Shown: in pieces, positions 9,541-56,431 of the stretch
Position numbering within the stretch: the stretch's first letter is position 1
Layout of the letters: every line of letters starts with the position of its first letter
DNA from: an uncultured bacterium
GTDB taxonomy: Bacteria; Patescibacteriota; Minisyncoccia; Moranbacterales; UBA2206
Assembly: GCA_903841185.1 (NCBI GenBank)
Contig: CAIMIV010000042.1
Location: 11,319 to 75,318 of the forward strand
Reading direction: 5' to 3'
DNA: 64,000 nt
Made by a program: the position numbers and the translations under genes
Notes under the pieces: generated by a model
The model's database searches: none
Told to the model about the DNA's origin: nothing
The model's input: only the letters and a program-made list of their open reading frames with translations

Positions 9541-10263
9541 ATGATTTATAACGTAAAAACGGACAAATTTGAAGGCCCCATGGAGTTGCTCTTGGAGCTG
9601 ATTGAAAAGGAAAAGCTCAGTATCACTGAACTGAGTTTGGCGCATGTCGCCAATCAATATCTGGAATATATCCGGCAGGAAGAGGGCATTAAGTTGGAGC
9701 ATTTGGCGGAATTTCTGGCGGTCGCTGCTAAGCTGATTTTGATAAAATCCAGAGCGCTTCTGCCTATGCTGGAGTTCACAGAAGAAGAGGAGGAGGAAAT
9801 CAAGGATCTAGCTCAACAACTGGCGGAATATAAAAAGTTCAAAGAGGCGTCGCTGGTGCTGGGCAATATGAGTGAGGCGGGAAAGATTAGTTATAACCGA
9901 CCTAATTTTGTCGGAGTGCAAACTATTTTCTATCCCCCGGAGGATATTAATATCTATGATTTCAGAAAATATTTTCAGCTGGTGTTGCAAGAAATTCCCA
10001 TTATTGAAAAGCTAGACGAAGAAACGGTGCGCGAAGTGATTACGCTGGAAGAGAAGATTAATGACCTGCAGAACACGTTGCGACAAAGAGTGGAAATGTC
10101 CTTTGCGGAACTGACACAGGGTGCTGTGGACAAAATTGACGTCATTCTCTCCTTTCTGGCGATGCTGGAAATGGTGAAGCAACGTATTATTGACGTGGAG
10201 CAGGGTGAGCTATTCCAGGAAATACGACTAAAACATAAAACTGTTAATAATAGTAGTGTATAA
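9541..10263 (+). CDS. scpA: segregation and condensation protein A
   Basis: N-terminus FEGPMELLLELIEKEKLSITELSLAHVANQYLEYI and a length of 240 aa fit ScpA. Confidence 0.8.
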   Translation: MIYNVKTDKFEGPMELLLELIEKEKLSITELSLAHVANQYLEYIRQEEGIKLEHLAEFLAVAAKLILIKSRALLPMLEFTEEEEEEIKDLAQQLAEYKKFKEASLVLGNMSEAGKISYNRPNFVGVQTIFYPPEDINIYDFRKYFQLVLQEIPIIEKLDEETVREVITLEEKINDLQNTLRQRVEMSFAELTQGAVDKIDVILSFLAMLEMVKQRIIDVEQGELFQEIRLKHKTVNNSSV

Positions 10264-10296
10264 AAGTTAAAAGATACAATAATCAAGACACAATAA

Positions 10297-10346
10297 CCCT
10301 GCCTACCGGCAGGCAGGCAAACAAATCTCATCCGCCAGCTGGCGGA
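10297..10346. repeat. two short GC-rich palindromic hairpin sequences in the scpA-scpB spacer
   Basis: ccctgcctaccggcaggcaggcaaa is identical over 25 nt to 29464-29488. tccgccagctggcgga is identical over 16 nt to 22502-22517. Confidence 0.5.
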
Positions 10347-10398
10347 CAATAATCAAAATTTGTTTATTAAATATTGTTTGTACCTTGTTTCTTGGTAA

Positions 10399-10953
10399 TT
10401 GATTATTGTTTTTATGGATCAAGAAAAAATAAAATCTATTCTCGAGAGCGTGCTGTTTGTGAGCGGCGAGGCTATTAGCGTGGCCAAGCTGGTGAAGATT
10501 ACGGGTGTAGTTGAAGAGGAAATTGAAGCGGCTATCATATCCTTGCAAGCAGATTATGGAAAAGATCGGGGCATAGTAATCATCCGCAAAGAGCAGGAGT
10601 TACAAATGGCCACTAATCCCGAAAATGCGGCTATGGTGGATCAATTGATTAAAAGTGAGATTCAAGAAAATCTCAGCCGAGCCGCTTTGGAAGTGTTGTC
10701 CATCATCGCGTATCGGGGACCAATTACGCGCGTCGAAGTGGAGGCCATTCGCGGAGTCAATTGCAGTTTCACGGTTCGATCGCTCATGATGCGAGGTCTG
10801 TTGGAGCGCATGGAAAATCCCAAGGATAATCGGGGCTATTTGTATAAAATTTCTTTTGATTTTTTGCGCAAGCTGGGCATCGATAGTATTGACAAATTGC
10901 CTGATTACGAAACGCTTTCTGTGGATGCGCGAATAGAAAGCATTATTGCCTGA
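10399..10953 (+). CDS. scpB: segregation and condensation protein B
   Basis: SILESVLFVSGEAISVAKLVKITG and the ScpB winged-helix pattern; it follows scpA. Confidence 0.8.
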   Translation: MIIVFMDQEKIKSILESVLFVSGEAISVAKLVKITGVVEEEIEAAIISLQADYGKDRGIVIIRKEQELQMATNPENAAMVDQLIKSEIQENLSRAALEVLSIIAYRGPITRVEVEAIRGVNCSFTVRSLMMRGLLERMENPKDNRGYLYKISFDFLRKLGIDSIDKLPDYETLSVDARIESIIA

Positions 10954-19125: not shown

Positions 19126-20142
19126 ATGGCAAAATACCTCATTTCTTTTCTCTTGGCTTTTCTGCTGACCGTTGCTTTTATCTTTTTGCTGAAATCTTTT
19201 ACCGGCAAGATTAAGTGGCGAGGGCGGGTTTCGGCGCGACACATTAATAGAGTAGATGTTTTTCGGGTGGGCGGCATAGCGATGATAATCGCTTTTAATT
19301 TAGCGCTACTGCTGAATAATGCTTTGGTGATCACACCGGCTTTGTCGGGCGTGATGTTAGCCTCGCTATTTGTTTTGGTGGTGGGAATTTGGGACGACGT
19401 GCGGGAAGTTTTTTGGAAAACCCAACTTTTCTATCAAGTAGCCATTGCCATGCTGGTGTATATTTTTGGTTTGCGGATTTATGCCATCACCAATCCGCTG
19501 GGAGGCGTCATAGGGTTCGATAGCAGTTGGGGAATCATAATTTCAGTGCTTTTAGTAATCGCTTGGATTGTGACCATTATCAATTCCATGAATTGGCTGG
19601 ATGGCATTGACGGTCTTTCCGGAGGGGTGTCTTTTATTTGCGCTATGACCATGGTTGTCCTCAGTCTCACGCCCGACGTCAACCAGCCGCCCGTGGCTAT
19701 TATAGCATTGGCTGTGGCCGGATCTATTCTGGGATTCTTGGTGTTTAATTTTTATCCTTCCATCATCATCGCCGGCACATCCGGATCGATGTTTATGGGA
19801 TTTTCCTTGGCCATTTTGGCTATTTTTGCCGGAACCAAAATTGCCACGGCCATTCTGGTGCTGGCTTTGCCTATTATTGATTTTGTCTGGGTGATTGGGG
19901 AGCGTCTAAAAAAGAAAAAATCTATTTTCAAAGCGGATAAGAATCATCTGCACTATAAATTGATGGAATTGGGCTGGTCGCAAAGAAAAATTGCTTTGTA
20001 TTATTATGCTGTCACGTTAGTCATTGCTATCGTGGCTTTAAATACGCGCGTGATTGGGAAAACCATTACCTTGTTAGCGGCTATGATTGTCATGACCAGT
20101 GCTCTTTTTTTTATCAATAAAAAATTGGCTCAAAAAAAGTAA
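19126..20142 (+). CDS. glycosyltransferase family 4, WecA/TagO/MraY-like undecaprenyl-phosphate sugar-1-phosphate transferase
   Basis: NSMNWLDGIDGLSGG, polytopic membrane protein, 338 aa. Confidence 0.7.
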   Translation: MAKYLISFLLAFLLTVAFIFLLKSFTGKIKWRGRVSARHINRVDVFRVGGIAMIIAFNLALLLNNALVITPALSGVMLASLFVLVVGIWDDVREVFWKTQLFYQVAIAMLVYIFGLRIYAITNPLGGVIGFDSSWGIIISVLLVIAWIVTIINSMNWLDGIDGLSGGVSFICAMTMVVLSLTPDVNQPPVAIIALAVAGSILGFLVFNFYPSIIIAGTSGSMFMGFSLAILAIFAGTKIATAILVLALPIIDFVWVIGERLKKKKSIFKADKNHLHYKLMELGWSQRKIALYYYAVTLVIAIVALNTRVIGKTITLLAAMIVMTSALFFINKKLAQKK

Positions 20143-20159
20143 ATATCTTTCTGTAAATG

Positions 20160-20192
20160 CAAAACCCCACAACATATAGTTGCGGGGTTTTG
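20160..20192 (+). terminator. rho-independent terminator
   Basis: Stem ccccacaac/gttgcgggg (one mismatch) followed by tttt. Confidence 0.45.
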
Positions 20193-20287
20193 CTATTAGA
20201 AAGTAGTAATATACTTAATTATGCAGTGGCCTGAAGCCACTAAGGAACAAGGTTATGTCTCATCATAGCTCTATCTTCTAGAAAAAA

Positions 20288-20881
20288 CTATGAGAGAGAG
20301 GGCACTCTAACGGCATATTTGTGTAGATTCTGGAGTTGCTTTTCGTTGAGAATTTTCGCTCTTCCGATGGCCTCTTGAATCAAATCTTTAGAAAATTCTA
20401 CTGAAGTTCCCACGTGGACAGAGCCAGAATGAGAAACTTTCTTTCGCAGATAGTCTTCGATGTAGATCTTGTGTTCAGCACTGAGCGTCGCATCTTGGTT
20501 TTTTTCCAGATAATTGGCCAGCGCTCGACGCGCCAATACAGTTTTTCCGTCTCCTCGTCCAGCGGTTTCCACAAAAGATTTTTCAGTCTCTTGGCTAGTC
20601 GCCTTAGGAGTTTCTTTTACATCGCCCTTCTTGGCAGTCGCAGTTTCCGCTACTTGATCGGTCGTAACAGCTAGATTTTCCGGGGAAGTGCTTTCTTCCA
20701 CGGCAGTTTCCTTAGTCAGCATAGACTGTTCGCTTCTCTTGGAGTAGGAATAGATGCCACCGGCGATAGCTACTACAATCAAAATGCTGATGATAACCCG
20801 GAGGTTATCTTGCAACCATTGCTTGGCTGTGGCTTGATTGATTTCTTCGTCAATATTGATATTATCTTGCATTTGTTTCAC
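20288..20881 (-). CDS. membrane-anchored hypothetical protein
   Basis: 197 aa with N-terminal TM helix VIISILIVVAIAGGIYSY, a low-complexity linker and a C-terminal globular domain. Confidence 0.45.
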   Translation of the reverse strand: MKQMQDNINIDEEINQATAKQWLQDNLRVIISILIVVAIAGGIYSYSKRSEQSMLTKETAVEESTSPENLAVTTDQVAETATAKKGDVKETPKATSQETEKSFVETAGRGDGKTVLARRALANYLEKNQDATLSAEHKIYIEDYLRKKVSHSGSVHVGTSVEFSKDLIQEAIGRAKILNEKQLQNLHKYAVRVPSLS

Positions 20882-21674
20882 CTACCTTTCTATTTTTAAT
20901 TTGTTAAGGGGCTTGCGTTGAAGCTATTTGCCCAAATAAAGGGGTTTCCTTGAGGGAAGACACCTGAATTCAAGACAATTCGACCAAAAATGTGTCTGTT
21001 TCTAAATTCTAGCAAAGCTGCCAGCGACGTCAACTAGACAAAAGGCTGTATTTTAGGTGTAATAGCGGGCGAATTTTCCCGTCTCGACTCGTGGAGGCGA
21101 CCACTCGCCGACCCGAGGCGGATAATTTTTAATTTCCAATTTTTAAAATAATGTTTAAATTTTTAATTTTCAATCCTAAATCGGGTATGATAAAAACTAA
21201 ATCTCAATCCCGAGGACTCAGGACCAAATGTCTAAATAATTAAAATTTTAAAAATTACAAAGTTATGCGGGACGTCGAATGTGAGAAAGAAAAATATGGA
21301 TAGAGGAAAATTTTTTCTAAAAAAGGGATGTGAGAAAATAAAAAGGAGGGGGTAAAAAATATTTTTTTATGTCAGAAAAAAAGAATTTATTTTTAGGGAA
21401 AAAAAATAGTCCGGCAAAATTATTTTTCACAGATTGAAAGAAAAAATAAAATGTTTATTTTAACGCAGTAAATATCGAAGAATAAAAAAAATATTTTTTG
21501 TGAAAAAATTTGGAGGCTGTGGATAACTTCTTCTATTGCAAAAAAAACTATTTGTTCTATAATTTAGATAGACAAAAATATTTTTTAAATAAAAAATAAA
21601 TTTGTTGAAATAAAAAAGGTCGAACAATGTATTATAAAGATAAAAATAAAATAGAAAGGAAGGTGAAATAAAAT

Positions 21675-21887
21675 ATGGCAGTAAAAAAAGCAGCAGCTAA
21701 AAAAGTTGCGAAAAAGGTTGTAAAAAAAGTAGCAGCTAAAAAAGTTGTGAAAAAGGTTGTAAAAAAAGTAGCAGCTAAAAAAGTTGTGAAAAAAGTAGCA
21801 GCTAAGAAAGTTGCTAAGAAGGTTGTGAAAAAAGCTGTAAAAAAAGCAGCTCCAAAGAAAAAAGTTGTAGCAAAAAAGAAGAAATAA
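21675..21887 (+). CDS. lysine/alanine-rich histone H1-like nucleoid protein
   Basis: 70 aa composed almost entirely of AAKKV/VVKKV repeats, encoded by ~45-bp tandem DNA repeats. A bidirectional terminator follows. Confidence 0.6.
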   Translation: MAVKKAAAKKVAKKVVKKVAAKKVVKKVVKKVAAKKVVKKVAAKKVAKKVVKKAVKKAAPKKKVVAKKKK

Positions 21888-21984
21888 TCTTTTTTTAGAT
21901 AAACTATCAACTTCTATCCAATCTACGCAGATATTATGCTTAACAGCAAATAACTATGATTGATTGAGGCAGAAGTCATACACT

Positions 21985-22012
21985 AAAAAACCCGCTATCA
22001 CGCGGGTTTTTT
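21985..22012. terminator. bidirectional terminator between H1-like gene and prmC
   Basis: aaaaaa cccgc tatcac gcggg tttttt. Confidence 0.6.
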
Positions 22013-22024
22013 AGTTGGCTAAAT

Positions 22025-22945
22025 TTAAACCGTGATTTGACAGAGGCGCCATTTTTGTGCCAGGTCTTTATGAAATGCGATGTGCGCTTGCGGAAGACGC
22101 TTTCGGATTAGCACCGGCAGTTGTCTTTTTTGCTCCGGACTGATCTCCATGTAACATGTTACATGTACCAAGGCATGAGTATTTTTTAGAGTTTCCATTT
22201 GCTGCAGCAGCTCCTCATAGTGTGCCAGTCCGGCAGCGGCGCTGTAGAGAGCGGATCGCGGTTCATATTTTTGCACGGTGGGGTGGGTGGCGGCATAGAT
22301 TTCGTCGGAGAGATAGGGGAGGTTGGCCAAGATTATCATCTTGGAATTTTCAATGTTCAATTTACAATTTTCAATTAGTGTTTCAAGAAGATTTCCTTGT
22401 AAGAATTTTATTTTTTTGGCCACGCCGTGGGTCTGGGCGTTTTGCTGTGCAACCGTTAGCGCTGCATTAGAAATATCCACGGCGAAGAATTTTGAATTTT
22501 GTCCGCCAGCTGGCGGATTGAATTTCGAATCAATGATTAAATTTTTTAAGATAGAAATAATAATATTGCCCGACCCAGTTCCCACGTCTACAATCATTTG
22601 ATGTTTGATGTTTGATGTTTGATGTTTGCTGGATATTTCCTGCAAGGCCATCTCGACCATCAATTCGGTCTCAGGACGGGGGATGAGCGTATCTGGGGTC
22701 ACAGCGAATGACAGGCCAAAAAACTCCCTGTAGCCCAGAATATAGGCCAAGGGCTCATCGCTCATTCTTCGCGTAATTTTTAAGTCTAAATTTTTAATTT
22801 TTAATGATGGAAGGACATATTCCGGGTAGGTCAGGACGAACTCGCGCGACTTTCCAATTTCTGCCGCAATCAGCACATCCAAGTCCAAGCGGTCAATTTT
22901 CCCGGCATATTTTTTCTGCAGGTCCGCGATGGTGGTCTTTGTCAT
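22025..22945 (-). CDS. prmC: peptide chain release factor N5-glutamine methyltransferase
   Basis: EPLAYILGYREFFGLSFAVTPDTLIPRPETE, SAM motif VDVGTGSGNI, and NLPY in place of NPPY. Confidence 0.75.
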   Translation of the reverse strand: MTKTTIADLQKKYAGKIDRLDLDVLIAAEIGKSREFVLTYPEYVLPSLKIKNLDLKITRRMSDEPLAYILGYREFFGLSFAVTPDTLIPRPETELMVEMALQEISSKHQTSNIKHQMIVDVGTGSGNIIISILKNLIIDSKFNPPAGGQNSKFFAVDISNAALTVAQQNAQTHGVAKKIKFLQGNLLETLIENCKLNIENSKMIILANLPYLSDEIYAATHPTVQKYEPRSALYSAAAGLAHYEELLQQMETLKNTHALVHVTCYMEISPEQKRQLPVLIRKRLPQAHIAFHKDLAQKWRLCQITV

Positions 22946-22954
22946 AATATTTTT

Positions 22955-23815
22955 TTAATCCAGTGGGCTTTTGATAGTCTGCAAATTAGTATTGGCCACC
23001 CTGGTGTAGATCTGTGTCGTTTCAAGGCGTGCATGACCCAGCAACTCTTGGATATAGCGAATGCTCGTGCCGGCTTCTAAAAGGTGAGTGGCGAAAGAAT
23101 GGCGCAAGCTGTGGCAAGAAACTTTTTTAGCAATGCCGGCCAGCTCAACTGCTTTTTTAACTATTTTTTCAGCACTTTCAGCAGTCAGATGTCCTTGTCC
23201 ACCAGCTCCAGTAAATAAATAGTCATTTGGCTTCTTCAGGGTTAATTGTTTTTGTAATGTTGGAATGAGTTTTTCAGATAACAGTGTGCAACGATCTTTT
23301 CCTCCCTTACCTTGGCGAACCATAATCATTTTTCTATCCAAATCAAAATCGCACATTCGGATTTTGATTGTCTCACTAACGCGCAGACCTGCCGAATACA
23401 TTAGTGATATCAAAAAATTATGTTTGGGGTTAGTTGTTTTCTCGAGCATTCGTTCAATCTCTTCTTTACTAAGGATTGTCGGCAGATAGTTGGTTTTTTT
23501 GGCACCTTTTATATCAAAGAAAAATTTGCGTTTCAATATTTGACGGTAATAGAATTTAAGGGCATTAAGTGCAACATTCAGGGTGGAATTGGCACAGTCC
23601 TTGTCTTTCAAAGAGATTAGGTATTGGCGAATGTCATCATTGGTTACTAGTTTGGGGCTTTTATCAGTAAATTGCAAAAAAAGCTTATTATAAAGTACAT
23701 AAGACTTTATAGTTTTTGGGCTAAAACCCCTGATTCTCAACTCTTGTTCTAAATTATACAGAGGGTCTCGTTCTTGAGTTGTTGTTTTTCCATCCATATG
23801 ATAGTATGTGTTCAT
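22955..23815 (-). CDS. tyrosine site-specific recombinase, XerC/XerD-like
   Basis: Catalytic residues in RVSE, KGGKDR, HSLRHSFATHLL, LLGH and QIYTRV. Size is 286 aa. Confidence 0.8.
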   Translation of the reverse strand: MNTYYHMDGKTTTQERDPLYNLEQELRIRGFSPKTIKSYVLYNKLFLQFTDKSPKLVTNDDIRQYLISLKDKDCANSTLNVALNALKFYYRQILKRKFFFDIKGAKKTNYLPTILSKEEIERMLEKTTNPKHNFLISLMYSAGLRVSETIKIRMCDFDLDRKMIMVRQGKGGKDRCTLLSEKLIPTLQKQLTLKKPNDYLFTGAGGQGHLTAESAEKIVKKAVELAGIAKKVSCHSLRHSFATHLLEAGTSIRYIQELLGHARLETTQIYTRVANTNLQTIKSPLD

Positions 23816-23894
23816 ATGATAGTTATGATTACATCAAAATCATAGCATAAACCATTGCTCAAGCCAATAACTTAGCAGGTACGAATAAAACTAG

Positions 23895-24189
23895 TTATCG
23901 GAAATAATTTATCACCTATGAATGAAAAATACAAAAAAATAGCCTTATCAGCATATATTCTTACAGCTGCCTATTTATCGACCGTATATAATTTCATTGG
24001 TCTCGTGGGGGCTGATTTTATCTTGGCGATTTTGGTTGCGATTTTACTAAATAGCTTTTTAGCATATCTGATATGGTCGAGTGATAAAACGCGAAAGTAT
24101 TCGGCTATTATTTTGACGATATTATTGTTGTTGGCCGCTCTTCATTTGTTGCCAGTATTTTAAAGGTGGTGATAAATTACATCCGATAA
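23895..24189. repeat. 295-bp unit bounded by 22-bp inverted repeats, enclosing a small ORF
   Basis: Left ttatcggaaataatttatcacc (23895-23916) against the reverse complement of right ggtgataaattacatccgataa (24168-24189) matches at 20 of 22 positions. The enclosed ORF starts 2 nt after the left IR and stops 5 nt before the right IR. Confidence 0.45.
23918..24163 (+). CDS. small membrane protein (2 TM)
   Basis: 81 aa with two hydrophobic helices. Confidence 0.45.
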   Translation: MNEKYKKIALSAYILTAAYLSTVYNFIGLVGADFILAILVAILLNSFLAYLIWSSDKTRKYSAIILTILLLLAALHLLPVF

Positions 24190-24386
24190 CAAAGAATATC
24201 TGGTTCAAAAAATTTGCCACAACTAAAACTAAAAGGAGGGCAAATTTTTCTCTCCCAAATCCCGCACTTTTCCGTTTTGTTGTAATTTAGAGTATAATGA
24301 GATGAATAAATAAATAAGAATATTAAGGTTTTGTGCCTAAAAGCCAAAGTGCAGGACTTCAGATATTCTTAAACGTTAAACGAAAT
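24187..24386 (+). repeat. copy 1 of a ~200-bp island repeat
   Basis: Begins taacaaagaatatctggttc and ends cttaaacgtta. Contains the hairpin aaaaatttgcc..ggcaaattttt with AAGGAGG in the loop and a tagagTATAATgag -10-like box. It is more than 90 percent identical to copies at 24886 and 29396. Confidence 0.7.
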
Positions 24387-24440
24387 TTTGTTCAAAAATA
24401 TTTTTTCATTTTTTATTGAGCCTTTTTGAAATTTTTTTAG

Positions 24441-24486
24441 AAAAAAGAAAGCCCCAGGTGGAATTGAATTTTCCACGAGGGGCTTA
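24441..24486 (-). terminator. rho-independent terminator for minus-strand small gene
   Basis: Hairpin agccccaggtggaa..ttccacgaggggct with a T-run on the minus strand. Confidence 0.45.
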
Positions 24487-24506
24487 GTTGTTGGCGTGTA
24501 ATGCGC

Positions 24507-24749
24507 TTATAAGTAACAAACGGGTCCGTTCTCACCTTTTTTTGTGTAAATTAGTGAAACCATTTGTGCAATAAGGCAGACCAGAAAAAATTCATACCTG
24601 CTTCCATTGATTTTTGGAATGTCAAATACCACGCTTGTGATTGCACTTAACATTCCAATGGTCCCCATAATTACGCCGATCCAGGCAAAAAACGTGTTAT
24701 TTTTATGCCAAATTTCTTTCATTATGACATCCTCCTTTTCGAGTTTCAT
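24507..24749 (-). CDS. small membrane protein
   Basis: 80 aa, two TM helices, followed by a terminator. Confidence 0.4.
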   Translation of the reverse strand: MKLEKEDVIMKEIWHKNNTFFAWIGVIMGTIGMLSAITSVVFDIPKINGSRYEFFLVCLIAQMVSLIYTKKGENGPVCYL

Positions 24750-24885
24750 GGTTTAATGTACTGTTTAACACCAAAATTAGCGTTCAAAGTAGCATAGCAG
24801 AAAACCAGTAACCCGTCAAGCCCACGGCCAAAAAATTTCAAAAAGGCTCTTTTAATAAGGAATATATTTTTGAACAAAACATCGT

Positions 24886-25088
24886 TTAACAAAGAATATC
24901 TGGTTCAAAAAATTTGCCGCAGTTAAAAACTAAAAGGAGGGCAAATTTTTCTCTCCCAAATCCAGCACTTTTCCGTTTTGCTGTAATTTAGAGTATAATG
25001 AGATTAACAAAGTAAATAGGAATATCAAGGTTTTGTGCATAAAAACCAAAGTGCAGGACTTCAGATATTCTTAAACGTTAAGTGAAAT
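24886..25088 (+). repeat. copy 2 of the ~200-bp island repeat
   Basis: Near-identical to copy 1 and lies upstream of the + strand ORF at 25216. Confidence 0.7.
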
Positions 25089-25215
25089 AAATCTTTATCT
25101 TTGTGGAAATTTCGAGCCAGGTTGCGTTGAACCAAGACGAAAATTTGATTTTTTTAAAAGTTTTTCCGCCACAGGCGGGATTATTTGGGGCTATTTTATT
25201 TTTAAATATAAAAAT

Positions 25216-26001
25216 ATGGAAAAAATTAACAAAAGCACAACACTGTTATTAAGTTCTTTTGCATTACTTCTGGTGCTAATCATTGCTGGGGTCATATCTT
25301 TCAAAAAAGAAATATCAACCTTAAAAAAAACACAGCAGTCATTATTACAAGAGAATGCGAAACTAAAGCAGGTCACAATTACTGATTCTCCTCAAAAAGC
25401 TCCCGTTGCTGAAATAACGGTTGGCAGTCCATGCGATGTGAATAATGGAAATATTTTAAATTCTAAGGGTCTGCAATGTTATTTTTATGATAGCTTAGAT
25501 TCAAGTGGAAATGAAATATTTCCTCGACACGGGGTATGGATTAAGCCTGATTTACGAAATATGCAAATTGATTCAAAGCTATATGAAATATATTTTAAGT
25601 CATGGAAAAAATATGTAAGTCCGGATAAAACTATTAGTTTTTCTTACCCACAAAACTGGAAAGTTGATGAGTCAAGTTGGAAGGATGGTAACTTATCTAT
25701 ACAATCAAGTGACTATTCACCGATATCAATTTCTAAGATTGAAAATAATGCTATTACAATAGAGCAGAGAATTAGTGATGATGAAAATGATAGACCATTT
25801 GAGAGAACTATTATCGAATTAAATGGCGTTAGTGGCACGAGACTCGACATCGCCCCAAAAGATAATTTAAGTGACCAAGAGCAAATAAAATTCTATTTTC
25901 AAAAGGATAAATATTACGTTGAATTAAGTGTTGCAAAAGCTGGATATGCTGCGTATGATTTTCCGACAGAATATTTATTGAGTACGATAAAAATAAAATA
26001 G
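25216..26001 (+). CDS. secreted or membrane-anchored hypothetical protein
   Basis: 261 aa with an N-terminal signal/anchor helix and no recognisable domain. Confidence 0.5.
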   Translation: MEKINKSTTLLLSSFALLLVLIIAGVISFKKEISTLKKTQQSLLQENAKLKQVTITDSPQKAPVAEITVGSPCDVNNGNILNSKGLQCYFYDSLDSSGNEIFPRHGVWIKPDLRNMQIDSKLYEIYFKSWKKYVSPDKTISFSYPQNWKVDESSWKDGNLSIQSSDYSPISISKIENNAITIEQRISDDENDRPFERTIIELNGVSGTRLDIAPKDNLSDQEQIKFYFQKDKYYVELSVAKAGYAAYDFPTEYLLSTIKIK

Positions 26002-26117
26002 CCCCAAATAATTGTTTTGCCATTCTGCAAAACAAAAACTTTTAAAAAAAATCAAATTTTCTATTAGCATGGATAAAGTTTGTGCTAATAAAAATGAAGA
26101 TAAAAATTTACATCACT

Positions 26118-26298
26118 TAACACGGCATATGCGGTTCAAAAATTTTGCGCTATTATATTTCAAGGAGTGCAAAATTTCCTCTCCCAAATTGCGCTGACGG
26201 AATGGCAAGTTTAGTGATATAATCAAGATAAGCGAAATTAACAAAATAATCAATCAATCCACGGCGCAACTTCGCATGTGCCGATACGTTAGACGAAA
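26118..26298 (+). repeat. diverged copy 3 of the island repeat
   Basis: Shares the start tacatcacttaac, a hairpin with compensatory changes (aattttgc/gcaaaatt), AAGGAG in the loop, ctctccc and a gtgaTATAATc box. It ends cgttagacgaaat. Confidence 0.5.
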
Positions 26299-26435
26299 TA
26301 AATTTATTTTATTTTTTAAATTCGCTTTTTATAATAAGAAAAAATAAGTTTTTTTATCTATTTATATAGGGGTAAAAAGGTGTTTTCTCCGCTGAGGCTG
26401 CGAAAACGGATTTATTAATATAATTTGTTTATATT

Positions 26436-28172
26436 ATGCAAAAAAATAACGAGATTGATTCATTAAAATTCAGCTGGGGTGATTTGGCGCGAGCGATTTT
26501 ATATTTATTTGGGGAAAAGAAAAATGAATATCTTTTTTCTTTGTTTGTCGTGGCTGTATTTAATTTATACGTAATTGTGCCGCCTTTGATAATTGGAAAA
26601 GTGATTGATTTTTTCAGCACATACAAATCAGGTGAATCGTTGAATACTTTTTATTTTTATGTGATTTTTCTGGGAATTTTCATTGGCGCCGTGCATTATT
26701 TCAATCTCTCCGCAATCCAGAAATTTCTACGTCTTAGCAACGAGTTAGTTTATAAGATTCGCGTCCAGGGCTTTGAGAAGTTATTGGAACAATCACTGTC
26801 CGAGCATGGTGAAGAAAATACAGGCGCCAAAAATCAAAAGATTCAAAATGGCGTGACGGCTTTTAATTTGTTTTCCGAAGCCTTGAATGACAGAATACTT
26901 CCCTCAATAGCGACGCTAGTCGGTGTTTTTGGCGTATTTTTGTATTTGAATTTTATCTATAATATTATTCTGATCGCTTATTTAATTGGCTTTGTCTACA
27001 TCCTTAGATTTTTCAGAAAGAAATTCGTAATGCTTCATTATGAAAAGAGTTTAGCTATGGAAAAATCAAGTGGTACTTATATTGAAGGTTTGAGCAATAT
27101 TACCACGATTAAGGCTAGTGGTGCAGAAAAAAATTTCAAAAGATCAGTCAGCAAAAACGAAGAGGCACGTAATTTTTTTGATCAAGAGATTTTGCGTGTC
27201 CGTGTAAATCAGTGGAAGTTATTTAACATTTATAACGGTATTTATACGGGAATATTTTTGTTTGTTATTGGTAGGGATGTAATCGCTGGCGTGGTTTCGA
27301 TCGGATCAATTGCAATTTTGTTGGCTTATTTAGAGAAAATAACCGACGCATCTGGCAAAGTGCTTGGTATGTATGGCTATTTAATTGACAAAAGAACATC
27401 TATCGCCCGCATGATGACTATTTTTTGGGCTGATAACAATATTTTAACTGGCGAAAAAGAATTCCCAGTCGATTGGCAGGAGATAAAATTAAGCAATGCG
27501 AGTTATGCTTATAAAAATGAAAAAAACACTAAAACTAATATTAACGGTGTCAATCTGGTGATTCAAAAAAACCAAAAAGTTGGCATCATTGGCACAACTG
27601 GCAGTGGCAAATCAACGCTTGTAAAATTATTGCTTGGCCTATACCCGCTTGATAAAGGAGAATACAAAATCGGCACAACTAATTTTTATGACATCAAGCA
27701 TGATGAAATATTCAAGCACATAGCAATTGTCTTACAAGAGTCGGAAATGTTCAATATTTCACTCAAAGAAAATATTGCGTTAAGTGAAAAAATTGATGAA
27801 GGGCGTTTATTGCACGCGATCAACATTGCTCAATTGGATGAGGTGGTGAAAAGCTTACCTAATGGCTTTGAAACTTTAATCGGGGAAAAGGGATACCATC
27901 TTTCTGGCGGCGAACGCCAACGCGTCGGCATTGCTCGAGCGATTTATAAAGATCCTGAAATTATGATTTTTGACGAAGCTACTTCATCACTTGATGTGCA
28001 AACAGAAAAGAAAATTCAAAAAGCACTTTTGGACAATCTTCAGCAAAAAACTATTATCATAGTCGCACATCGAACGAATACCCTGGAAAAAGTAGATGTT
28101 ATCTATAAAGTGGAAGGTGGAAAAATTGTTCAACAAGGAAGTTATGAGGAGTTTTTTGGTATTCACCAATGA
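26436..28172 (+). CDS. ABC transporter, fused permease/ATP-binding subunit
   Basis: TM domain plus GTTGSGKSTL, LSGGERQRVGIARA, IMIFDEATSSLD and VAHR. Confidence 0.85.
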   Translation: MQKNNEIDSLKFSWGDLARAILYLFGEKKNEYLFSLFVVAVFNLYVIVPPLIIGKVIDFFSTYKSGESLNTFYFYVIFLGIFIGAVHYFNLSAIQKFLRLSNELVYKIRVQGFEKLLEQSLSEHGEENTGAKNQKIQNGVTAFNLFSEALNDRILPSIATLVGVFGVFLYLNFIYNIILIAYLIGFVYILRFFRKKFVMLHYEKSLAMEKSSGTYIEGLSNITTIKASGAEKNFKRSVSKNEEARNFFDQEILRVRVNQWKLFNIYNGIYTGIFLFVIGRDVIAGVVSIGSIAILLAYLEKITDASGKVLGMYGYLIDKRTSIARMMTIFWADNNILTGEKEFPVDWQEIKLSNASYAYKNEKNTKTNINGVNLVIQKNQKVGIIGTTGSGKSTLVKLLLGLYPLDKGEYKIGTTNFYDIKHDEIFKHIAIVLQESEMFNISLKENIALSEKIDEGRLLHAINIAQLDEVVKSLPNGFETLIGEKGYHLSGGERQRVGIARAIYKDPEIMIFDEATSSLDVQTEKKIQKALLDNLQQKTIIIVAHRTNTLEKVDVIYKVEGGKIVQQGSYEEFFGIHQ

Positions 28173-28232
28173 CCTCAAACATGATAAAATAAAGATAAGT
28201 TTCACTGCCTATTTTAATAAAATACAAAATTC

Positions 28233-29255
28233 ATGTCCAAAAACAATCATAAAATTAGCATAAAAGACGAATTGACCGAATTTCTGCTTTACACAGCCCC
28301 AAGTGGCAAGGTAAAAGTAGAAATTTACTTTCATGACGAAAATATTTGGCTTACCCAAGACAAAATGGCCAAATTATTTGGCGTGCAACAACCAGCTATT
28401 GCCAAACACTTGAAGAATATTTTTGAAAGCGGTGAATTGCTGGAAAATTCAGTTCATTCCATTTTGGAATATACTGCCAGCGATGGCAAAAAGTATCAAA
28501 CCAAATTTTATAATCTTGACGCCATAATTTCCGTTGGATATCGGGTAAATTCAGCTCAAGCTACTCAATTTCGCATCTGGGCAACAGAAAGGCTTAAAGA
28601 GTACATCATAAAAGGTTTCACCATAGATGATGAGAGATTGAAGAATGGAAGATATTTTGACAAAGATTATTTTCTCGAACTTTTGGAAAGAGTCCGTTCA
28701 ATTCGTGCTAGTGAGCGAAAAATTTATCAGCAAATTACGGATATTTTTGCTGAATGTAGTATGGATTACAGTCCAACATCAGAAATTGCTAAAAATTTTT
28801 ATGCAATGATTCAAAATAAATTCCATTTTGCTATTACTGGCAAAACTGCAGCTGAGATTATTTATGAGACGGCTGACAAGCAAAAACCATTTATGGGACT
28901 TAAGACTTGGAAAAATTCACCAAATGGCAGAATTATCAAATCCGACACAGTTATCGCTAAAAATTATCTTAACGAGGATAAAATAAAAAAACTGGAAAGA
29001 GGCATTGTCGGCTATTTTGATTACATTGAAAGATTGATTGAGAATCACACCGCTCTCACGATGGAAAAGTTGGCGGAATCTGTAAATAACTTTTTGGAGT
29101 TTAACAAGTACGAAGTGCTTGAAGGAAAGGGCACGATTTCTCATGCCCAAGCAGAACAAAAAGCGTTTCAAGAATATGACGAATATAATAAGACGCAGGC
29201 AATAGAATCTGATTTTGACAAACTTGTAAAATCTTTACCGACTGGAGAAAAATAA
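28233..29255 (+). CDS. RhuM-family virulence/DNA-binding protein
   Basis: N-terminal VKVEIYFHDENIWLTQDKMAKLFGVQQPAIAKHL and the AIISVGYRVNS region match the RhuM family. Confidence 0.65.
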   Translation: MSKNNHKISIKDELTEFLLYTAPSGKVKVEIYFHDENIWLTQDKMAKLFGVQQPAIAKHLKNIFESGELLENSVHSILEYTASDGKKYQTKFYNLDAIISVGYRVNSAQATQFRIWATERLKEYIIKGFTIDDERLKNGRYFDKDYFLELLERVRSIRASERKIYQQITDIFAECSMDYSPTSEIAKNFYAMIQNKFHFAITGKTAAEIIYETADKQKPFMGLKTWKNSPNGRIIKSDTVIAKNYLNEDKIKKLERGIVGYFDYIERLIENHTALTMEKLAESVNNFLEFNKYEVLEGKGTISHAQAEQKAFQEYDEYNKTQAIESDFDKLVKSLPTGEK

Positions 29256-29395
29256 GGAGTTTTGAATTTTAGGCATTCCCGCCAGAGGCGGACAGGCATC
29301 CCTGACCCCTCTGCCCAAAATCCAAAACAAAAAAACTTATTTAATCTATTTAGAATAAAAAGCGAATTTAAAAAAGAAAATAAATTTACATCGTC

Positions 29396-29615
29396 TAACA
29401 AAGAATATCTGGTTCAAAAAATTTGCCGCAGTTAAAAATACAAGGAGGGCAAATTTTTTTCTCCCCTGCCTACCGGCAGGCAGGCAAATCCCGCACTTTT
29501 CCATTTTGTCGTAATTTAGGGTATAATAGGATTAATAAATAAATAGGAATATTAAGGTTTTATGCATAAAAACCAAAGTGCAGGACTTCAGATATTCTTA
29601 AACGTTAGGTGTAAT
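29396..29615 (+). repeat. copy 4 of the ~200-bp island repeat carrying a 22-bp palindromic insertion
   Basis: Same as copies 1 and 2, except that ctgcctaccggcaggcaggca is inserted after ctccc. The same 25-mer occurs at 10297. Confidence 0.7.
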
Positions 29616-29652
29616 TTATTTAAAATCCCTTAAAAAATAAATTAAGAAAAAT

Positions 29653-29955
29653 ATGACAACAATAAATGAGTTTCAAGAAATGTGTGCCAAGGTGGTGGGG
29701 GAGATTGACGCAAAATATGGCATTGCTCGTGACCCGCATTTTAGCTTCACACAATTTATGGAAGAAGTTGGTGAACTGGCGAAAGAGATAAATAAGCCGA
29801 AGTTGCGCAACAAAGAAATGGATCGGGAAAATTTGAACGGTGAATTTGCCGACGTCATCTTGCAGTTTTTCACACTTGCCAGTATGCTAGAAGTAGATGT
29901 GGAAAAGGCAGTTGAAGCTAAAATGGCGATACTGAAAGAGCGACATGATTTATAA
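29653..29955 (+). CDS. MazG-like nucleotide pyrophosphohydrolase domain protein
   Basis: 100 aa with the EEVGELAKEI...EFADVILQ pattern of the MazG/NTP-PPase all-alpha fold. Confidence 0.55.
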   Translation: MTTINEFQEMCAKVVGEIDAKYGIARDPHFSFTQFMEEVGELAKEINKPKLRNKEMDRENLNGEFADVILQFFTLASMLEVDVEKAVEAKMAILKERHDL

Positions 29956-29972
29956 TTTTAAATTACAATCCT

Positions 29973-30392
29973 ATGGGAAGGGAACAACCGCCGACATTTG
30001 ATCCGCGTGATGAGAAATATAAAAAAGTGGAGGATTTGCCGGAAGAAGAGCAGGAGAATTTTGTAAAAGTGAATGGTGGATTTATTACGCAAAAGGCCAA
30101 GCGCTTTGAGGACGCGGTTTTGAAGCAGGAGGAATTGCTTAATCCAAAGATCTTTAGGGGAAAAACTGCTGACATAATTCAAAATAGCTTGAAGGAGTCA
30201 CCGGAGGAATATATAAAGCACCATCGGCGACTAAGGCGGTGTAAAGCGTGGGCCGCTGGAGAGGAAGCCGCTGTGGCCGAAAAAAATATTATGCCGAATG
30301 AGGAGACTATTCCGGAAGACGCTAGTACGGCGGATGGACAGTCAGCTTTGACAGAAGAGGAATTGTCTGAAAAAACATGCAAAAGAATATGA
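29973..30392 (+). CDS. hypothetical acidic protein
   Basis: 139-aa ORF with no motif; its 3' end overlaps the next gene. Confidence 0.35.
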   Translation: MGREQPPTFDPRDEKYKKVEDLPEEEQENFVKVNGGFITQKAKRFEDAVLKQEELLNPKIFRGKTADIIQNSLKESPEEYIKHHRRLRRCKAWAAGEEAAVAEKNIMPNEETIPEDASTADGQSALTEEELSEKTCKRI

Positions 30393-30778
30393 AAAAAGAT
30401 AACAGAAAAAATAGCCGGCGCAGCCTGGTTTTTGTATTAGGTGCTATTTTGTGGTTGAGTGTTATTTTTTTATTTTCTGCCGAGCCGAATTTGCGCTCAC
30501 CTTTTTCCTATAACGTAGATTTCGTTTTACGCAAAATAGCGCACATTGTGGAATATCTTATTTTGACGGTGCTGGTATGGAAGGCTTTGTTGCCGCGAGC
30601 CAAAGGCAACTTGTTGCTGGCGGTTTTTTTGATAGTCTTGAGCGCGGCGGTTTTGGATGAATGTCATCAATTGTTTGTCGCAGGGCGGGAAGGCACGCTC
30701 CGCGACGTGTTGTTTGACGCGGGGGGAATTTTCATTGCTTGGTATTTTATTATTAGAAAAAAAAATGAAAAAAGATAG
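30377..30778 (+). CDS. VanZ-like membrane protein
   Basis: Hydrophobic helices and LDECHQLFVAGREGTLRDVLFDAGG typical of the VanZ family. Confidence 0.55.
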   Translation: MQKNMKKDNRKNSRRSLVFVLGAILWLSVIFLFSAEPNLRSPFSYNVDFVLRKIAHIVEYLILTVLVWKALLPRAKGNLLLAVFLIVLSAAVLDECHQLFVAGREGTLRDVLFDAGGIFIAWYFIIRKKNEKR

Positions 30779-38007: not shown

Positions 38008-38053
38008 AGATATTATCCCAGCACTAATTCCGATATAGTTTGTAGGTAATATG

Positions 38054-38173
38054 GGGATGCGTGTGCGAATTCGCCTCCGGCTAGGTTGAAATTTAATAAA
38101 TTAATTCAAGTGCGAATTAGTGCGGGATGCTTATTTTTATAGCTACTCGTTCCTCGCAGATAAAAATAGCATG
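38054..38173 (+). promoter_or_regulatory. partial copy of a structured leader element shared with nusG and rplK
   Basis: gtgcgaattcgcctccggcta ... tgcgaattagtgcgggatgc, then the stem tatttttat/ataaaaata enclosing the ATG at 38171. Confidence 0.4.
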
Positions 38174-39554: not shown

Positions 39555-39702
39555 TGTAATTTTAATAGTAATTTTTGTAACAAAATTTTTAATTTCCAAT
39601 TTTTAATTTTATAAATAAATCTTAATTTCTAAATTTTTAAACATTAGAAATTAAAACATTATTTAAAAATTACAAAATTAAAAATTATAAAATTATATTC
39701 TC

Positions 39703-55682: not shown

Positions 55683-55861
55683 TAAGCATATTTTGCCTTA
55701 GAGCCGAAAAAGTTTGACCCGGTTGCGTCTTTGCCCTATACTATAAAGGCTATTCCAGAAGATCTTTTGGAGACTGAATTTGGCAGGGACTATAGACAAA
55801 TTTTTTATATCTGTTATAATAAATTACAGTTTTTAGAAAGCAGAATTAGGGTAAAAATTAT

Positions 55862-56341: not shown

Positions 56342-56349
56342 AATAGCAC

Positions 56350-56431
56350 GGGCGTATAGCTCAGTTTCCGCCGGTAGGCGGACCAGCCTATGGCTGGGGT
56401 CGAAAAATGACGAGGCCTCTGGTTCGAGTCC
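56350..56431 (+). pseudogene. partial duplicate of tRNA-Ile with an internal 41-nt GC-hairpin insertion
   Basis: The first 19 nt are identical to tRNA-Ile (gggcgtatagctcagtt). Then comes tccgccggtaggcgga ccagcctatggctgg, then tgacgaggcctctggttcgagtcc identical to the tRNA-Ile 3' half. No 3' acceptor strand follows. Confidence 0.4.

What the first reader, a model, noticed from the sequence alone, without database searches (positions are those of the whole stretch)
10297..10346. Family of short GC-rich palindromes (tCCGCC-N3-4-GGCGGa and cctgcc-tacc-ggcagg) scattered in an AT-rich genome
Exact 16-mer tccgccagctggcgga is found at 10331 (intergenic) and 22502 (inside prmC, encoding PPAGG). Exact 25-mer ccctgcctaccggcaggcaggcaaa is found at 10297 and 29464, the latter as a clean insertion into island repeat copy 4. 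Related hairpins lie at 25170, 29283 and 56368. These are possibly a miniature mobile palindromic element (REP-like) or a recognition site.
Basis: seen in the sequence. Interest (0 to 1): 0.5.

Follow-up and report, generated by a model that had tools for sequence, protein, structure and literature searches.

The report
Cross-phylum mobile GC-rich mini-palindromes
The short GC-rich hairpins are real, non-random repeats: 16-20-base palindromes that come and go between closely related genomes, sit in spacers and in frame inside essential genes, and one of them occurs letter for letter in at least 85 genome assemblies from about nine bacterial phyla.

Summary
The exact 16-mer lies at 10331 and 22502, and the exact 25-mer at 10297 and 29464. 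There are five CCGCC-N3-4-GGCGG hairpins where 0.03 are expected by chance.

The 25-mer is a 20-nt quasi-palindrome, CTGCCTACCGGCAGGCAGGC, inserted at a CC^AAA site. It is a clean 20-nt insertion in island repeat copy 4. It is also present or absent between about 99%-identical genomes inside miaA and miaB.

The 16-mer in prmC replaces 4 nt of a low-complexity tract that relatives keep intact. The same hairpin with the same flanks sits in a different PrmC loop in another lineage.

At 10273-10412 both palindromes are modules of a roughly 140-nt long-hairpin repeat of the MITE type (miniature inverted-repeat element). This repeat fills the scpA-scpB spacer. Relatives carry other arms, a perfect-palindrome variant, or nothing at that spot.

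The exact 25-mer occurs in at least 118 stretches from 85 assemblies: Patescibacteria, Bacteroidota including cultured Algoriphagus, Desulfobacterota, Omnitrophota and others. Its orientation is random with respect to transcription and GC skew.

No Rfam family, paper, RAYT (REP-associated tyrosine transposase) or other transposase was found.

Best reading: a non-autonomous, DNA-level mobile mini-palindrome of the REP or mitochondrial GC-cluster kind. The enzyme that moves it is unknown.

The parts
10273..10412 (.). Composite long-hairpin (MITE-like) repeat. It fills the scpA-scpB spacer: AT-rich low-complexity inverted arms (agatacaa-type) carrying the two GC palindromes as branches.
   Evidence: The region folds as one long hairpin with two GC side hairpins (z -3.7 as RNA, -5.0 as DNA). 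It is 75-92% identical over 60-146 nt to elements in L029, L052, L053, L068, L069 and L089. The flanking genes are ScpA and ScpB.
10299..10318 (+). 20-nt quasi-palindromic core CTGCCTACCGGCAGGCAGGC.
   Evidence: The match is exact. The core boundaries come from filled/empty comparisons. The same 25-mer occurs in at least 118 public genome stretches.
10331..10346 (.). Perfect 16-bp palindrome TCCGCCAGCTGGCGGA, lying inside the right arm of the composite element.
   Evidence: Relatives of the composite have aattcaaaaaatcaataa at this position.
22502..22517 (.). The same 16-bp palindrome inside prmC (ORF 22025-22945, minus strand). It is read in frame as N-PPAGG-Q within a low-complexity SKF..QNSKF loop after SAM-binding motif I.
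   Evidence: Relatives have ttcaa-aatt-caaaattc where the window has ttcaa-TCCGCCAGCTGGCGGA-caaaattc, a net gain of 12 nt.
25166..25178 (.). CCGCC-ACA-GGCGG hairpin, 38 nt upstream of the start codon of ORF 25216-26001 and downstream of island repeat copy 2.
   Evidence: It is flagged as terminator-like on the + strand by a consensus scan only.
29279..29291 (.). CCGCC-AGA-GGCGG hairpin, 24 nt downstream of the RhuM-family ORF 28233-29255.
29466..29485 (+). The 20-nt core inserted into copy 4 of the ~220-nt island repeat, between ..TTCTCCC and AAATCCCGC..
   Evidence: Alignment A1 shows a single 20-column gap in copies 1-3. The strain contig L131 carries a hybrid repeat without the insert. The relative L037 has the filled form.
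56367..56397 (.). Two adjacent GC hairpins, TCCGCCGGTAGGCGGA and CCAGCCTATGGCTGG. They replace the D-loop-to-anticodon part of a degenerate duplicate of tRNA-Ile (56350-56440), just downstream of a GIY-YIG ORF.
   Evidence: ARAGORN and Rfam do not call this duplicate as a tRNA. The GIY-YIG assignment is by Pfam.

Best explanation
The hairpins belong to a family of very small (16-21 nt), GC-rich, non-coding palindromic DNA modules. They are gained and lost at the DNA level in AT-rich genomes. In kind they resemble REP elements, Rickettsia palindromic elements and the GC clusters of yeast mitochondria.

The best-defined member is a 20-nt quasi-palindrome, CCTGCCTACC|GGCAGGCAGG, with one conserved A.C mismatch. 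A perfect variant with G at that position also exists. It is found inserted at C-C^A-A-A. This site usually lies inside tandem ~7-nt CA-rich low-complexity tracts whose inverted copies form 100-200-nt long hairpins (MITE-like composites), or in loops of other hairpins.

What is shown:
- The insertion is exactly 20 nt with no visible target duplication beyond a possible single C.
- The composites and the cores are both indel-polymorphic between near-identical genomes.
- Copies inside genes are always in frame.
- Orientation is random with respect to transcription and to GC skew.

What is inferred:
- The core is a recognition module for a trans-acting, horizontally spread or widely shared DNA enzyme that copies or inserts it.
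- The surrounding low-complexity tracts are places where insertions are tolerated. The reading frame can be restored there by slippage. Examples are +20 with +28 nt in miaA, and +16 with -4 nt in prmC.
- The elements are mainly selfish or neutral passengers rather than regulators.
For: Non-randomness:
- Window counts far exceed shuffles.
By my own calculation, about 0.001 are expected in 596 Gb.
- CCGCC..GGCGG makes up 34 of 77 all-GC 5-bp hairpins in 895 kb. The arm-swapped GGCGG..CCGCC occurs only twice.
- In viral contigs the 16-mer has 56 sites against 21 for its arm-swapped control.

Insertion polymorphism:
- A clean 20-nt insert lies in island repeat copy 4, absent from copies 1-3 and from strain contig L131.
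- In L089 versus L069 (98-99% identical flanks), the MiaA ORF differs by the 20-nt core plus a 28-nt tract. The MiaB ORF differs by a 198-nt in-frame segment carrying the 25-mer and a CCGCC hairpin.
- L041 versus L072 differ by 20 nt.
- PrmC shows filled and empty alleles, and the same hairpin with the same flanks sits at a second PrmC loop in P0032/L137.
- The orthologous scpA-scpB spacer is empty in L150 and carries other arms plus the perfect-palindrome variant in L148/L149.

Composite structure and multi-copy nature:
- Folds and alignments show the long-hairpin composites.
- At least 5 copies occur in one MAG (metagenome-assembled genome).
- Three independent assemblies break exactly inside the 25-mer.

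Target: the flank profile is ..TTCCAAAAT|CC[core]AAAT.CCAAAT...

Not a strand-specific RNA signal: 40 same-strand versus 33 antisense relative to genes, and 44 versus 35 relative to GC skew.
Against: - No mobilising enzyme was identified. No Y1/RAYT or other transposase occurs in the window ORFs tested, between the inverted copies in L033, or recurrently in the 118 loci.
- The lack of orientation bias argues against an IS200/IS605-type single-strand mechanism.
- In the source population the scpA-scpB element is fixed and identical in all strain contigs, so there is no ongoing polymorphism at that site.
- The flank and target statistics come from loci ascertained with the 25-mer, which already contains CC and AAA. 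In GC-rich viral contigs the 3' flank is not AAA.
- CCGCC hairpins have many different loops. That part of the 'family' could be a selected or convergent motif rather than copies of one element.
- Genome-wide copy number could not be counted in any complete genome.
Confidence: 0.6

Rival explanations
1. The core is not independently mobile. Only the larger composite repeats (low-complexity long hairpins and the island repeat) spread. They do so by recombination or gene conversion between paralogous copies or by horizontal transfer, and the 20-nt difference reflects conversion between filled and empty paralogues.
For: - Composites are multi-copy and 75-92% identical between genomes.
- The same 79-nt piece at least (94.9% identical) occurs in miaA of L089 and miaB of L069.
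- The island shows recombination between repeat copies (L131 hybrid).
- The prmC and P0032 copies share flanks as well as the hairpin.
Against: - The island repeat is unrelated in sequence to the low-complexity composites, yet it carries exactly the 20-nt core at a CC^AAA site with undisturbed flanks.
- The arms differ completely between lineages, and even between 73%-related ScpB loci, while the core stays identical or one base different.
- The core also sits in loops of unrelated hairpins and in GC-rich phage contigs without any low-complexity arms.
Confidence: 0.2
2. The hairpins are functional structural signals kept by selection. Candidate roles are transcription terminators or attenuators, mRNA 3'-end stabilisers, or a binding site for a dimeric DNA-binding protein. 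Their recurrence would then reflect function rather than mobility.
For: - The stems are stable GC pairs.
- Most copies are intergenic, about 86% by a crude ORF call.
- On the G/T-rich strand the hairpin is followed by a T-rich tail, and a consensus scan flags 10298-10349 (minus strand) and 25164-25180 (plus strand) as terminator-like.
- The 20-mer is a near-perfect 20-bp palindrome, as expected for a dimer site.
- The element is fixed in all strain contigs of the source population.
- E. coli REPs are known to stabilise mRNA (my own knowledge).
Against: - There is no orientation preference relative to flanking genes (40:33) and no enrichment between convergent genes.
- The 10297-10346 copies lie between co-directional scpA and scpB, with the terminator-like strand antisense to both genes.
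- Copies sit in frame inside prmC, miaA, miaB, an aminoacyl-tRNA synthetase and others.
- Presence/absence occurs between ~99%-identical genomes.
- Orthologous spacers lack it.
- No Rfam family matches.
Confidence: 0.15
3. Chance, base composition, or an assembly or sequencing artefact.
For: - GC-rich palindromes can cause coverage drops and contig breaks. Three assemblies do break in the 25-mer.
- Many hits are MAGs, whose taxonomic labels may be wrong.
Against: - Shuffles give about 0 expected matches.
- The arm-swapped controls are much rarer.
- The same sequence is found in independent short-read and long-read assemblies, in Mb-scale contigs, and in cultured Algoriphagus genomes including a complete chromosome.
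- The spacer is identical in three independent strain contigs.
- It is absent from 7.3 Gb of plasmids and 2.3 Gb of GenBank phages, so it is not a universal contaminant or adapter.
Confidence: 0.01

Closest known systems
REP / BIME / REPIN elements mobilised by RAYT (Y1 HUH transposases) in Proteobacteria
   Same: - 20-40-nt GC-rich imperfect palindromes.
- Multi-copy and mostly extragenic.
- Found in either orientation.
- Occasionally inside ORFs (PMC3733652).
- Non-coding and presumably mobilised in trans.
   Different: - There is no GTAG or CGTC tag at the end of the palindrome. GTAG occurs only inside the loop of one strand of the 20-mer, and not at all in the 16-mer.
- No RAYT was found.
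- REP sequences are species- or genus-specific, whereas this core is identical in 85 assemblies from about nine phyla.
- The insertion unit here is a single 20-nt palindrome rather than a REP doublet.
Mobile GC clusters and double-hairpin elements of AT-rich fungal mitochondrial genomes (my own knowledge)
   Same: - Short GC-rich palindromes scattered in an AT-rich genome.
- Presence/absence between strains.
- Insertion into spacers, other repeats and even coding or RNA genes.
- No coding capacity and an unknown mobilising activity.
   Different: - Those are organellar and lineage-restricted.
- The elements here are bacterial, cross-phylum, and associated with CA-rich heptamer-like tracts.
Rickettsia palindromic elements (RPE) and other in-frame palindromic repeats (PARCELs, PMC2996958; Coxiella MITEs, PMC5896051)
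   Same: - Palindromic repeats tolerated in frame inside essential genes, adding surface peptide segments.
- Examples here are PPAGG, LPTGRQA and PAYRQAGK in PrmC, MiaA, MiaB and an aminoacyl-tRNA synthetase.
   Different: - RPEs are 100-150 nt and restricted to one genus.
- Here the conserved unit is only 16-21 nt.
- In the two cases resolved here (miaA, prmC), the reading frame is kept by an accompanying length change in the adjacent low-complexity tract.
MITEs and ERIC/IRU-type long imperfect palindromes
   Same: The composite at 10273-10412 and its relatives are 120-200-nt multi-copy elements with inverted arms. They fold into long hairpins and fill intergenic spacers.
   Different: - No target-site duplication could be defined and no parent IS was identified.
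- The arms are low-complexity tandem motifs that differ between lineages, while an internal 20-nt module is invariant.

Membership tests
REP/RAYT system | Short (20-40 nt) GC-rich imperfect palindrome | tested here: met
   The 20-nt quasi-palindrome has one A.C mismatch. The perfect 16-mer and the 13-16-nt CCGCC hairpins also fit.
REP/RAYT system | Conserved GTAG (or CGTC) tetranucleotide at one end of the palindrome | tested here: not met
   The sequences were read directly. The flanks of the 25-mer are CC/AAA. GTAG occurs only in the loop of the reverse strand (CCGGTAGG). The 16-mer has neither tag. The defining feature is taken from PMC3733652.
REP/RAYT system | A cognate RAYT (Y1 HUH transposase) gene in the genome, typically flanked by REPs | not testable with these tools
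   Only 64 kb of the source genome and 8-kb loci are available. None was seen among the window ORFs scanned, among the L033 ORFs, or as a recurrent family in the 118 loci.
REP/RAYT system | High copy number, predominantly extragenic | tested here: inconclusive
   The window holds 2 + 5 + 1 copies in 64 kb. About 86% are intergenic. No whole-genome count was possible.
MITE | Terminal inverted repeats and small size (50-500 nt), multi-copy | tested here: met
   This holds for the composite, not for the core. Inverted arms and defined ends are seen in the Syntrophaceae and CPR (Candidate Phyla Radiation) sets, and in the folds.
MITE | Target-site duplication and a related autonomous IS | tested here: inconclusive
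   No consistent duplication was visible at the ends of 12 aligned copies. The low-complexity ends make the boundaries uncertain. No IS was found.
Intrinsic (Rho-independent) terminator | GC hairpin followed by a U-tract, on the sense strand at gene 3' ends | tested here: not met
   Orientation relative to genes is 40:33. At 10298-10349 the terminator-like strand is antisense, and the site lies between co-directional scpA and scpB. Copies also occur inside ORFs.
Described RNA families (Rfam 15) | Match at or near a family's gathering score | tested here: not met
   Only two tRNAs reach gathering score in the window. E-value scans of 10150-10500, 20000-31000, 55800-56600 and L036 give only hits far below threshold.

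The most novel reading that the evidence does not exclude
The 20-21-nt quasi-palindrome C-CTGCCTACCGGCAGGCAGG-C would be the smallest known horizontally spreading mobile DNA module. It would move as a bare palindrome into CC^AAA-type sites in at least nine bacterial phyla, including ultra-small CPR genomes. The agent would be an as yet unidentified enzyme, either widely shared or phage- or plasmid-borne. Alternatively, a templated-insertion activity could write this sequence de novo. This would be a mobilisation mechanism not covered by RAYT/REP, IS-derived MITEs or integrons.
Probability: 0.25. Interest if true: 0.85.

Novelty: new variant of a known kind. Interest (0 to 1): 0.6.

Why it matters
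Short palindromic repeats are usually treated as lineage-specific curiosities. This case differs in three ways.

- **Cross-phylum identity.** One 20-nt palindrome is letter-identical in 85 species-level assemblies from very distant phyla. It is absent from 9.6 Gb of plasmid and phage records from cultured hosts. Either an unknown trans-acting activity is shared or transferred across environmental bacteria, or the element transfers unusually well.
- **Effect on proteins.** Together with the low-complexity tracts it lives in, it reshapes essential proteins (PrmC, MiaA, MiaB, aminoacyl-tRNA synthetases) in genome-reduced CPR bacteria. It varies between ~99%-identical genomes. It therefore contributes to protein length variation and is a potential strain marker.
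- **Practical consequences.** It breaks metagenome assemblies. It also produces recurring peptide strings such as LPTGRQA, PAYRQAG and PPAGG that can mislead homology searches and annotation.

Cultured Algoriphagus strains carry the element, so the mechanism is open to experiment.

Tried and rejected
- **Known RNA family.** Rfam gathering and e-value scans gave nothing.
- **Adapter or universal contaminant.** There are no exact hits in PLSDB plasmids or GenBank phages, and the element is present in isolate genomes.
- **Insertion preferentially into loops of pre-existing hairpins.** A fold-based test with ±45-nt flanks did not support this. Controls had more junction-spanning pairs. The test was poorly suited to long hairpins, so I dropped it.
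- **Strand bias relative to transcription or replication**, as expected for a terminator or for IS200/IS605-type transposition. There is none.
- **An autonomous element between the two inverted 67-nt copies in L033.** Only housekeeping genes lie between them.
- **Association with the GIY-YIG ORF next to the 56367 hairpins.** Homologues occur in only 3 of 118 loci, 0.4-2.8 kb from the core. DUF559-like and four-helix-bundle (23S IVS-type) ORFs recur in 3-4 loci each, and those I checked were 1.4 kb or more from the core.
- **Literature.** Searches for the DNA strings, the derived peptides and descriptive keywords found no description of this element. Two REP surveys do not list it.
- **Strain-level polymorphism at 10297-10346.** All available strain contigs are identical there. 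Polymorphism appears only at greater divergence.

Full report
**1. The observation**

- The 16-mer TCCGCCAGCTGGCGGA occurs exactly twice, at 10331 and 22502. No further copy appears even with two mismatches, and none in 100 shuffles.
- The 25-mer CCCTGCCTACCGGCAGGCAGGCAAA occurs exactly twice, at 10297 and 29464.
- CCGCC-N3-4-GGCGG occurs five times against 0.03 expected.
- A scan for perfect GC stems adds CCAGCC-TAT-GGCTGG at 56383.

The window has 41% G+C and strong positive GC skew. By its proteins it comes from a Moraniibacteriota (CPR/Patescibacteria) genome.

- 10297-10346 lies in the 150-nt spacer between ScpA and ScpB.
- 22502 lies inside PrmC on the minus strand.
- 29464 is a clean 20-column insertion in copy 4 of a ~220-nt repeat that occurs four times in the island (A1).

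**2. Anatomy of the core**

Filled and empty comparisons place the inserted unit at 20 nt, CTGCCTACCGGCAGGCAGGC, between CC and AAA. Shifted by one C, this is equivalently CCTGCCTACCGGCAGGCAGG.

- Island copies 1-3 read TCTCCC|AAATCC. Copy 4 has the 20 nt between these two halves.
- In the MiaA gene, L069 reads CAATAACC|AAACAAATTTC. L089 has the same 20 nt inserted at that point.

The core is a 20-bp palindrome, CCTGCCTACC|GGCAGGCAGG, with one A.C mismatch. A perfect variant, CCTGCCTGCCGGCAGGCAGG, also occurs at several loci and in L148/L149.

Two viral-contig scans with the two 20-mer registers returned the same 14 sites. The unit is therefore flanked by C on both sides everywhere, and at least 21 nt are conserved.

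**3. The composite at the finding's coordinates**

Positions 10255-10420 fold into one long AT-rich hairpin with the two GC palindromes as side branches. The z-score is -3.7 as RNA and -5.0 as DNA.

The segment is 75-92% identical over 60-146 nt to elements in other CPR assemblies: L029, L052, L053, L068, L069 and L089. An alignment shows a shared architecture:
- (GATACAA)n;
- the core;
- CAAATCTCAAATTCAAAAAATCAATAA;
- a loop;
- the inverted G/T-rich arm.

In the window copy, the 16-mer replaces part of the right arm.

Deltaproteobacterial and Syntrophaceae genomes carry an analogous ~150-nt element with different arms (AAATGTCAAATGTCAAAAT ... ATTTGACATTTGACATT). It has clear ends and at least five copies in one MAG. 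The same core sits about 19 nt inside one arm as a bulge.

Across 116 non-redundant sites the flanks are periodic..TTCCAAAAT|CC[core]AAAT.CCAAAT.. The empty site is thus CC^AAA inside tandem ~7-nt CA-rich repeats. One caveat applies: CC and AAA were part of the search pattern.

In other loci the core lies in the loop of unrelated hairpins, including terminator-like ones (for example L111, L078, L117, L118), or in GC-rich phage contigs with no low-complexity flanks.

**4. Distribution**

By my own calculation, about 0.001 hits are expected in 596 Gb.

By accession prefix these stretches are 85 different assemblies. By record title they include:
- many Patescibacteria classes;
- Bacteroidota, including cultured Algoriphagus halophilus (complete chromosome), A. 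iocasae and A. pacificus;
- Deltaproteobacteria/Thermodesulfobacteriota on Mb-scale long-read contigs;
- Omnitrophota, Elusimicrobia, Planctomycetota, Bdellovibrionales, Gammaproteobacteria and Terriglobia.

The sequence is absent from 7.3 Gb of PLSDB plasmids and 2.3 Gb of GenBank phages. It is rare in IMG/VR, with 14 sites.

In the 895 kb of fetched loci, CCGCC-loop-GGCGG accounts for 34 of 77 hairpins with all-GC 5-bp stems. The arm-swapped GGCGG..CCGCC accounts for 2. The loops vary widely.

In viral contigs the 16-mer has 56 sites against 21 for the arm-swapped control. Where local G+C is below 50%, the counts are 15 against 3.

**5. Evidence for gain and loss**

(a) *Paralogues.* Island copy 4 differs from copies 1-3 by the insert. 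Strain contig L131 has an identical PrmC but lacks about 4.5 kb of the island. It carries a hybrid repeat without the insert.

(b) *Near-identical genomes.* L089 (Ja1_bin-0683) and L069 (Kiruna_bin-03023) are 98-99% identical in their flanking DNA.
- In MiaA (Pfam IPPT), L089 has the 20-nt core and, 12 nt further on, 28 nt more of the low-complexity tract. The total is 48 nt, in frame..YNNPAYRQAGKQISISNIQKTKSKIQN.. against ..YNNQTNFKIQN...
- In MiaB (UPF0004 plus Radical_SAM), L069 has a 198-nt in-frame segment that L089 lacks. It carries the 25-mer and a TCCGCC-CCGG-GCGGA hairpin.

(c) *L041 versus L072.* Their alignment is 83% identical over 324 nt and differs by the 20 nt.

(d) *PrmC.* The window reads ttcaa-TCCGCCAGCTGGCGGA-caaaattc. 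Three relatives read ttcaa-aatt-caaaattc, a net difference of +12 nt. More distant homologues lack the whole SKFKIQNSKF tract. P0032/L137 carries the same hairpin (loop AGCC) with the same flanks in a different PrmC loop, just before the NLPY motif.

(e) *The scpA-scpB spacer.*
- It is identical in three strain contigs.
- Three other assemblies break exactly in the 25-mer.
- Orthologues at 73% ScpB identity have different AT-rich arms plus the perfect-palindrome variant.
- An orthologue at 63% identity has a short spacer with no element.

Other PrmC homologues carry further palindrome-derived peptides in variable loops, such as LPACRTGRK, PASPAGRQ, CHSRESGNP..SRIKCGMT and LDSRLHGND. The window has a 31-nt palindrome in frame in an AIRS-domain ORF. 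These genomes therefore host several types of such modules.

**6. What it is not**

- Its orientation is random relative to flanking genes (40 same-strand, 33 antisense) and there is no excess between convergent genes.
- Its orientation is also random relative to local GC skew (44:35).
- At 10298-10349 a consensus scan finds terminator-like features only on the strand antisense to scpA and scpB.
- No Rfam family comes near threshold.

These results argue against a strand-specific RNA signal and against an IS200/IS605-like single-strand mechanism tied to replication.

No transposase was found in any of these places:
- among the window ORFs I scanned;
- between the inverted copies in L033;
- as a recurrent neighbour in the 118 loci.

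GIY-YIG, DUF559-like and four-helix-bundle ORFs occur near a few copies. The closest I measured was about 0.4 kb away.

**7. Most likely mechanism**

*Shown:*
- a sequence-specific 20-21-nt palindrome, and a looser CCGCC hairpin family, are far over-represented;
- they are inserted or deleted as discrete units;
- they are embedded in multi-copy long-hairpin composites;
- they are tolerated in frame in proteins;
- they are shared across phyla.

*Inferred:*
- the core is the recognition module of a trans-acting DNA enzyme, or of a horizontally moving agent, that copies it into CC^AAA-like sites;
- the low-complexity tracts are both permissive and slippage-prone, which explains why coding copies are always in frame through compensating length changes (+20/+28 and +16/-4);
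- the elements are mostly selfish or neutral.

I put 0.6 on this overall reading. My confidence in any particular enzyme is much lower.

The main rivals are spread only as part of larger repeats by gene conversion (0.2) and a selected structural or binding function (0.15). Chance or artefact is effectively excluded.

**8. Comparison with known systems and novelty**

In kind these are REP-like or GC-cluster-like mini-palindromes nested in MITE/ERIC-like long hairpins. They show RPE-like in-frame tolerance.

Membership in the REP/RAYT family is not established. The terminal GTAG/CGTC tag is absent, which I tested. RAYT association could not be tested. The cross-phylum identity contrasts with lineage-specific REPs (PMC3733652, PMC12306157).

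Full-text searches for the sequences, the derived peptides and descriptive terms found no description of this element.

I therefore rate it a new variant of a known kind. The surprising feature is the letter-perfect conservation of a 20-nt mobile palindrome across about nine phyla. Cultured Algoriphagus strains offer a tractable experimental handle.

Noticed in passing
window 22955-29700 (repeat copies at 24174-24396, 24874-25098, 26084-26300, 29383-29625): The layout is integron-like. A tyrosine recombinase ORF (22955-23815, minus strand) is divergent from a string of gene cassettes separated by a ~200-220-nt structured repeat. Each copy starts ..CGTTTAAC (RYYYAAC-like) and ends AAACGTTA[A/G][A/G][C/T] (GTTRRRY-like), and has a closing stem and internal hairpins. 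Copy 3 keeps the structure through compensatory changes. A strain contig (L131) lacks ~4.5 kb (three ORFs) and has one hybrid repeat joined at AAACGTTA|GG. The repeat is 91-92% identical in L139/L140, although PrmC there is only 56% identical. The recombinase-prmC pairing is conserved in relatives, so the recombinase may be a Xer-type housekeeping enzyme.
   Followed up: partly
window 55937-56440: A GIY-YIG nuclease ORF (56048-56341) lies between tRNA-Ala and tRNA-Ile. It is preceded by a long-range stem (acttcgactca..tgagtcgaagt). It is followed by a degenerate duplicate of tRNA-Ile (56350-56440) that keeps the 5' acceptor/D-stem and the T-arm. In that duplicate the D-loop-to-anticodon part is replaced by two GC hairpins. 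It looks like the scar of a small mobile cassette inserted at the tRNA gene.
   Followed up: partly
window 30917-30947: A perfect 13-bp-stem palindrome, TGTGGAGACGCCCCGCCAGGGCGTCTCCACA, lies in frame (..NNVETPRQGVSTAS..) inside an AIRS-domain ORF (30765-31790). This is a second type of GC-rich palindrome inserted in a gene. I did not check whether homologues lack it.
   Followed up: partly
window 39560-39700: A ~140-nt AT-rich low-complexity long hairpin (aatttccaatttttaatttt...aaaattaaaaatt) without any GC core. It is 73-75% similar to an element in L046 and may be an 'empty' relative of the composite at 10273-10412.
   Followed up: no
window 38026-38180, 56808-57016, 57519-57731: Three copies (74-77% identical) of a ~160-210-nt structured repeat with a GCATCCCGCA...TGCGGGA(T/C)GC stem, lying in spacers before genes. 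No Rfam match reached gathering score. It could be a leader or another repeat family.
   Followed up: no
L144, L145, L146 (contig ends corresponding to window 10297-10301): Three independent metagenome assemblies of this population end exactly inside the 25-mer. The palindrome acts as an assembly breakpoint, through repeat ambiguity or a coverage drop.
   Followed up: partly
PrmC homologues P0008, P0018, P0022, P0027, P0038, P0084, P0089, P0117 (alignment A2); MiaB-like ORFs of L069 and L089: Variable loops of CPR housekeeping proteins carry recurring peptides that look like translations of other GC-rich palindromes. Examples are CHSRESGNP..SRIKCGMT, LDSRLHGND, VIPDLIRNP, LPACRTGRK, PACRQAGL and LPTGQAGK. 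Several families of such modules therefore seem to exist.
   Followed up: no
window 21632-21910 and 21982-22015: A tandem 12/27-nt repeat encodes a Lys/Ala-rich (AAKKVAKKV-type) small ORF. Next to it is a classic bidirectional terminator-like hairpin (AAAAAACCCGC-loop-GCGGGTTTTTT) just beyond the stop codon of prmC. This shows what ordinary terminators look like in this genome.
   Followed up: no
L033 179-245 and 6155-6221: Two 67-nt inverted copies (91% complementary) lie 5.9 kb apart, each centred on the perfect palindrome variant. They bracket housekeeping genes and no recombinase. This could be an invertible segment or simply two repeat copies.
   Followed up: partly
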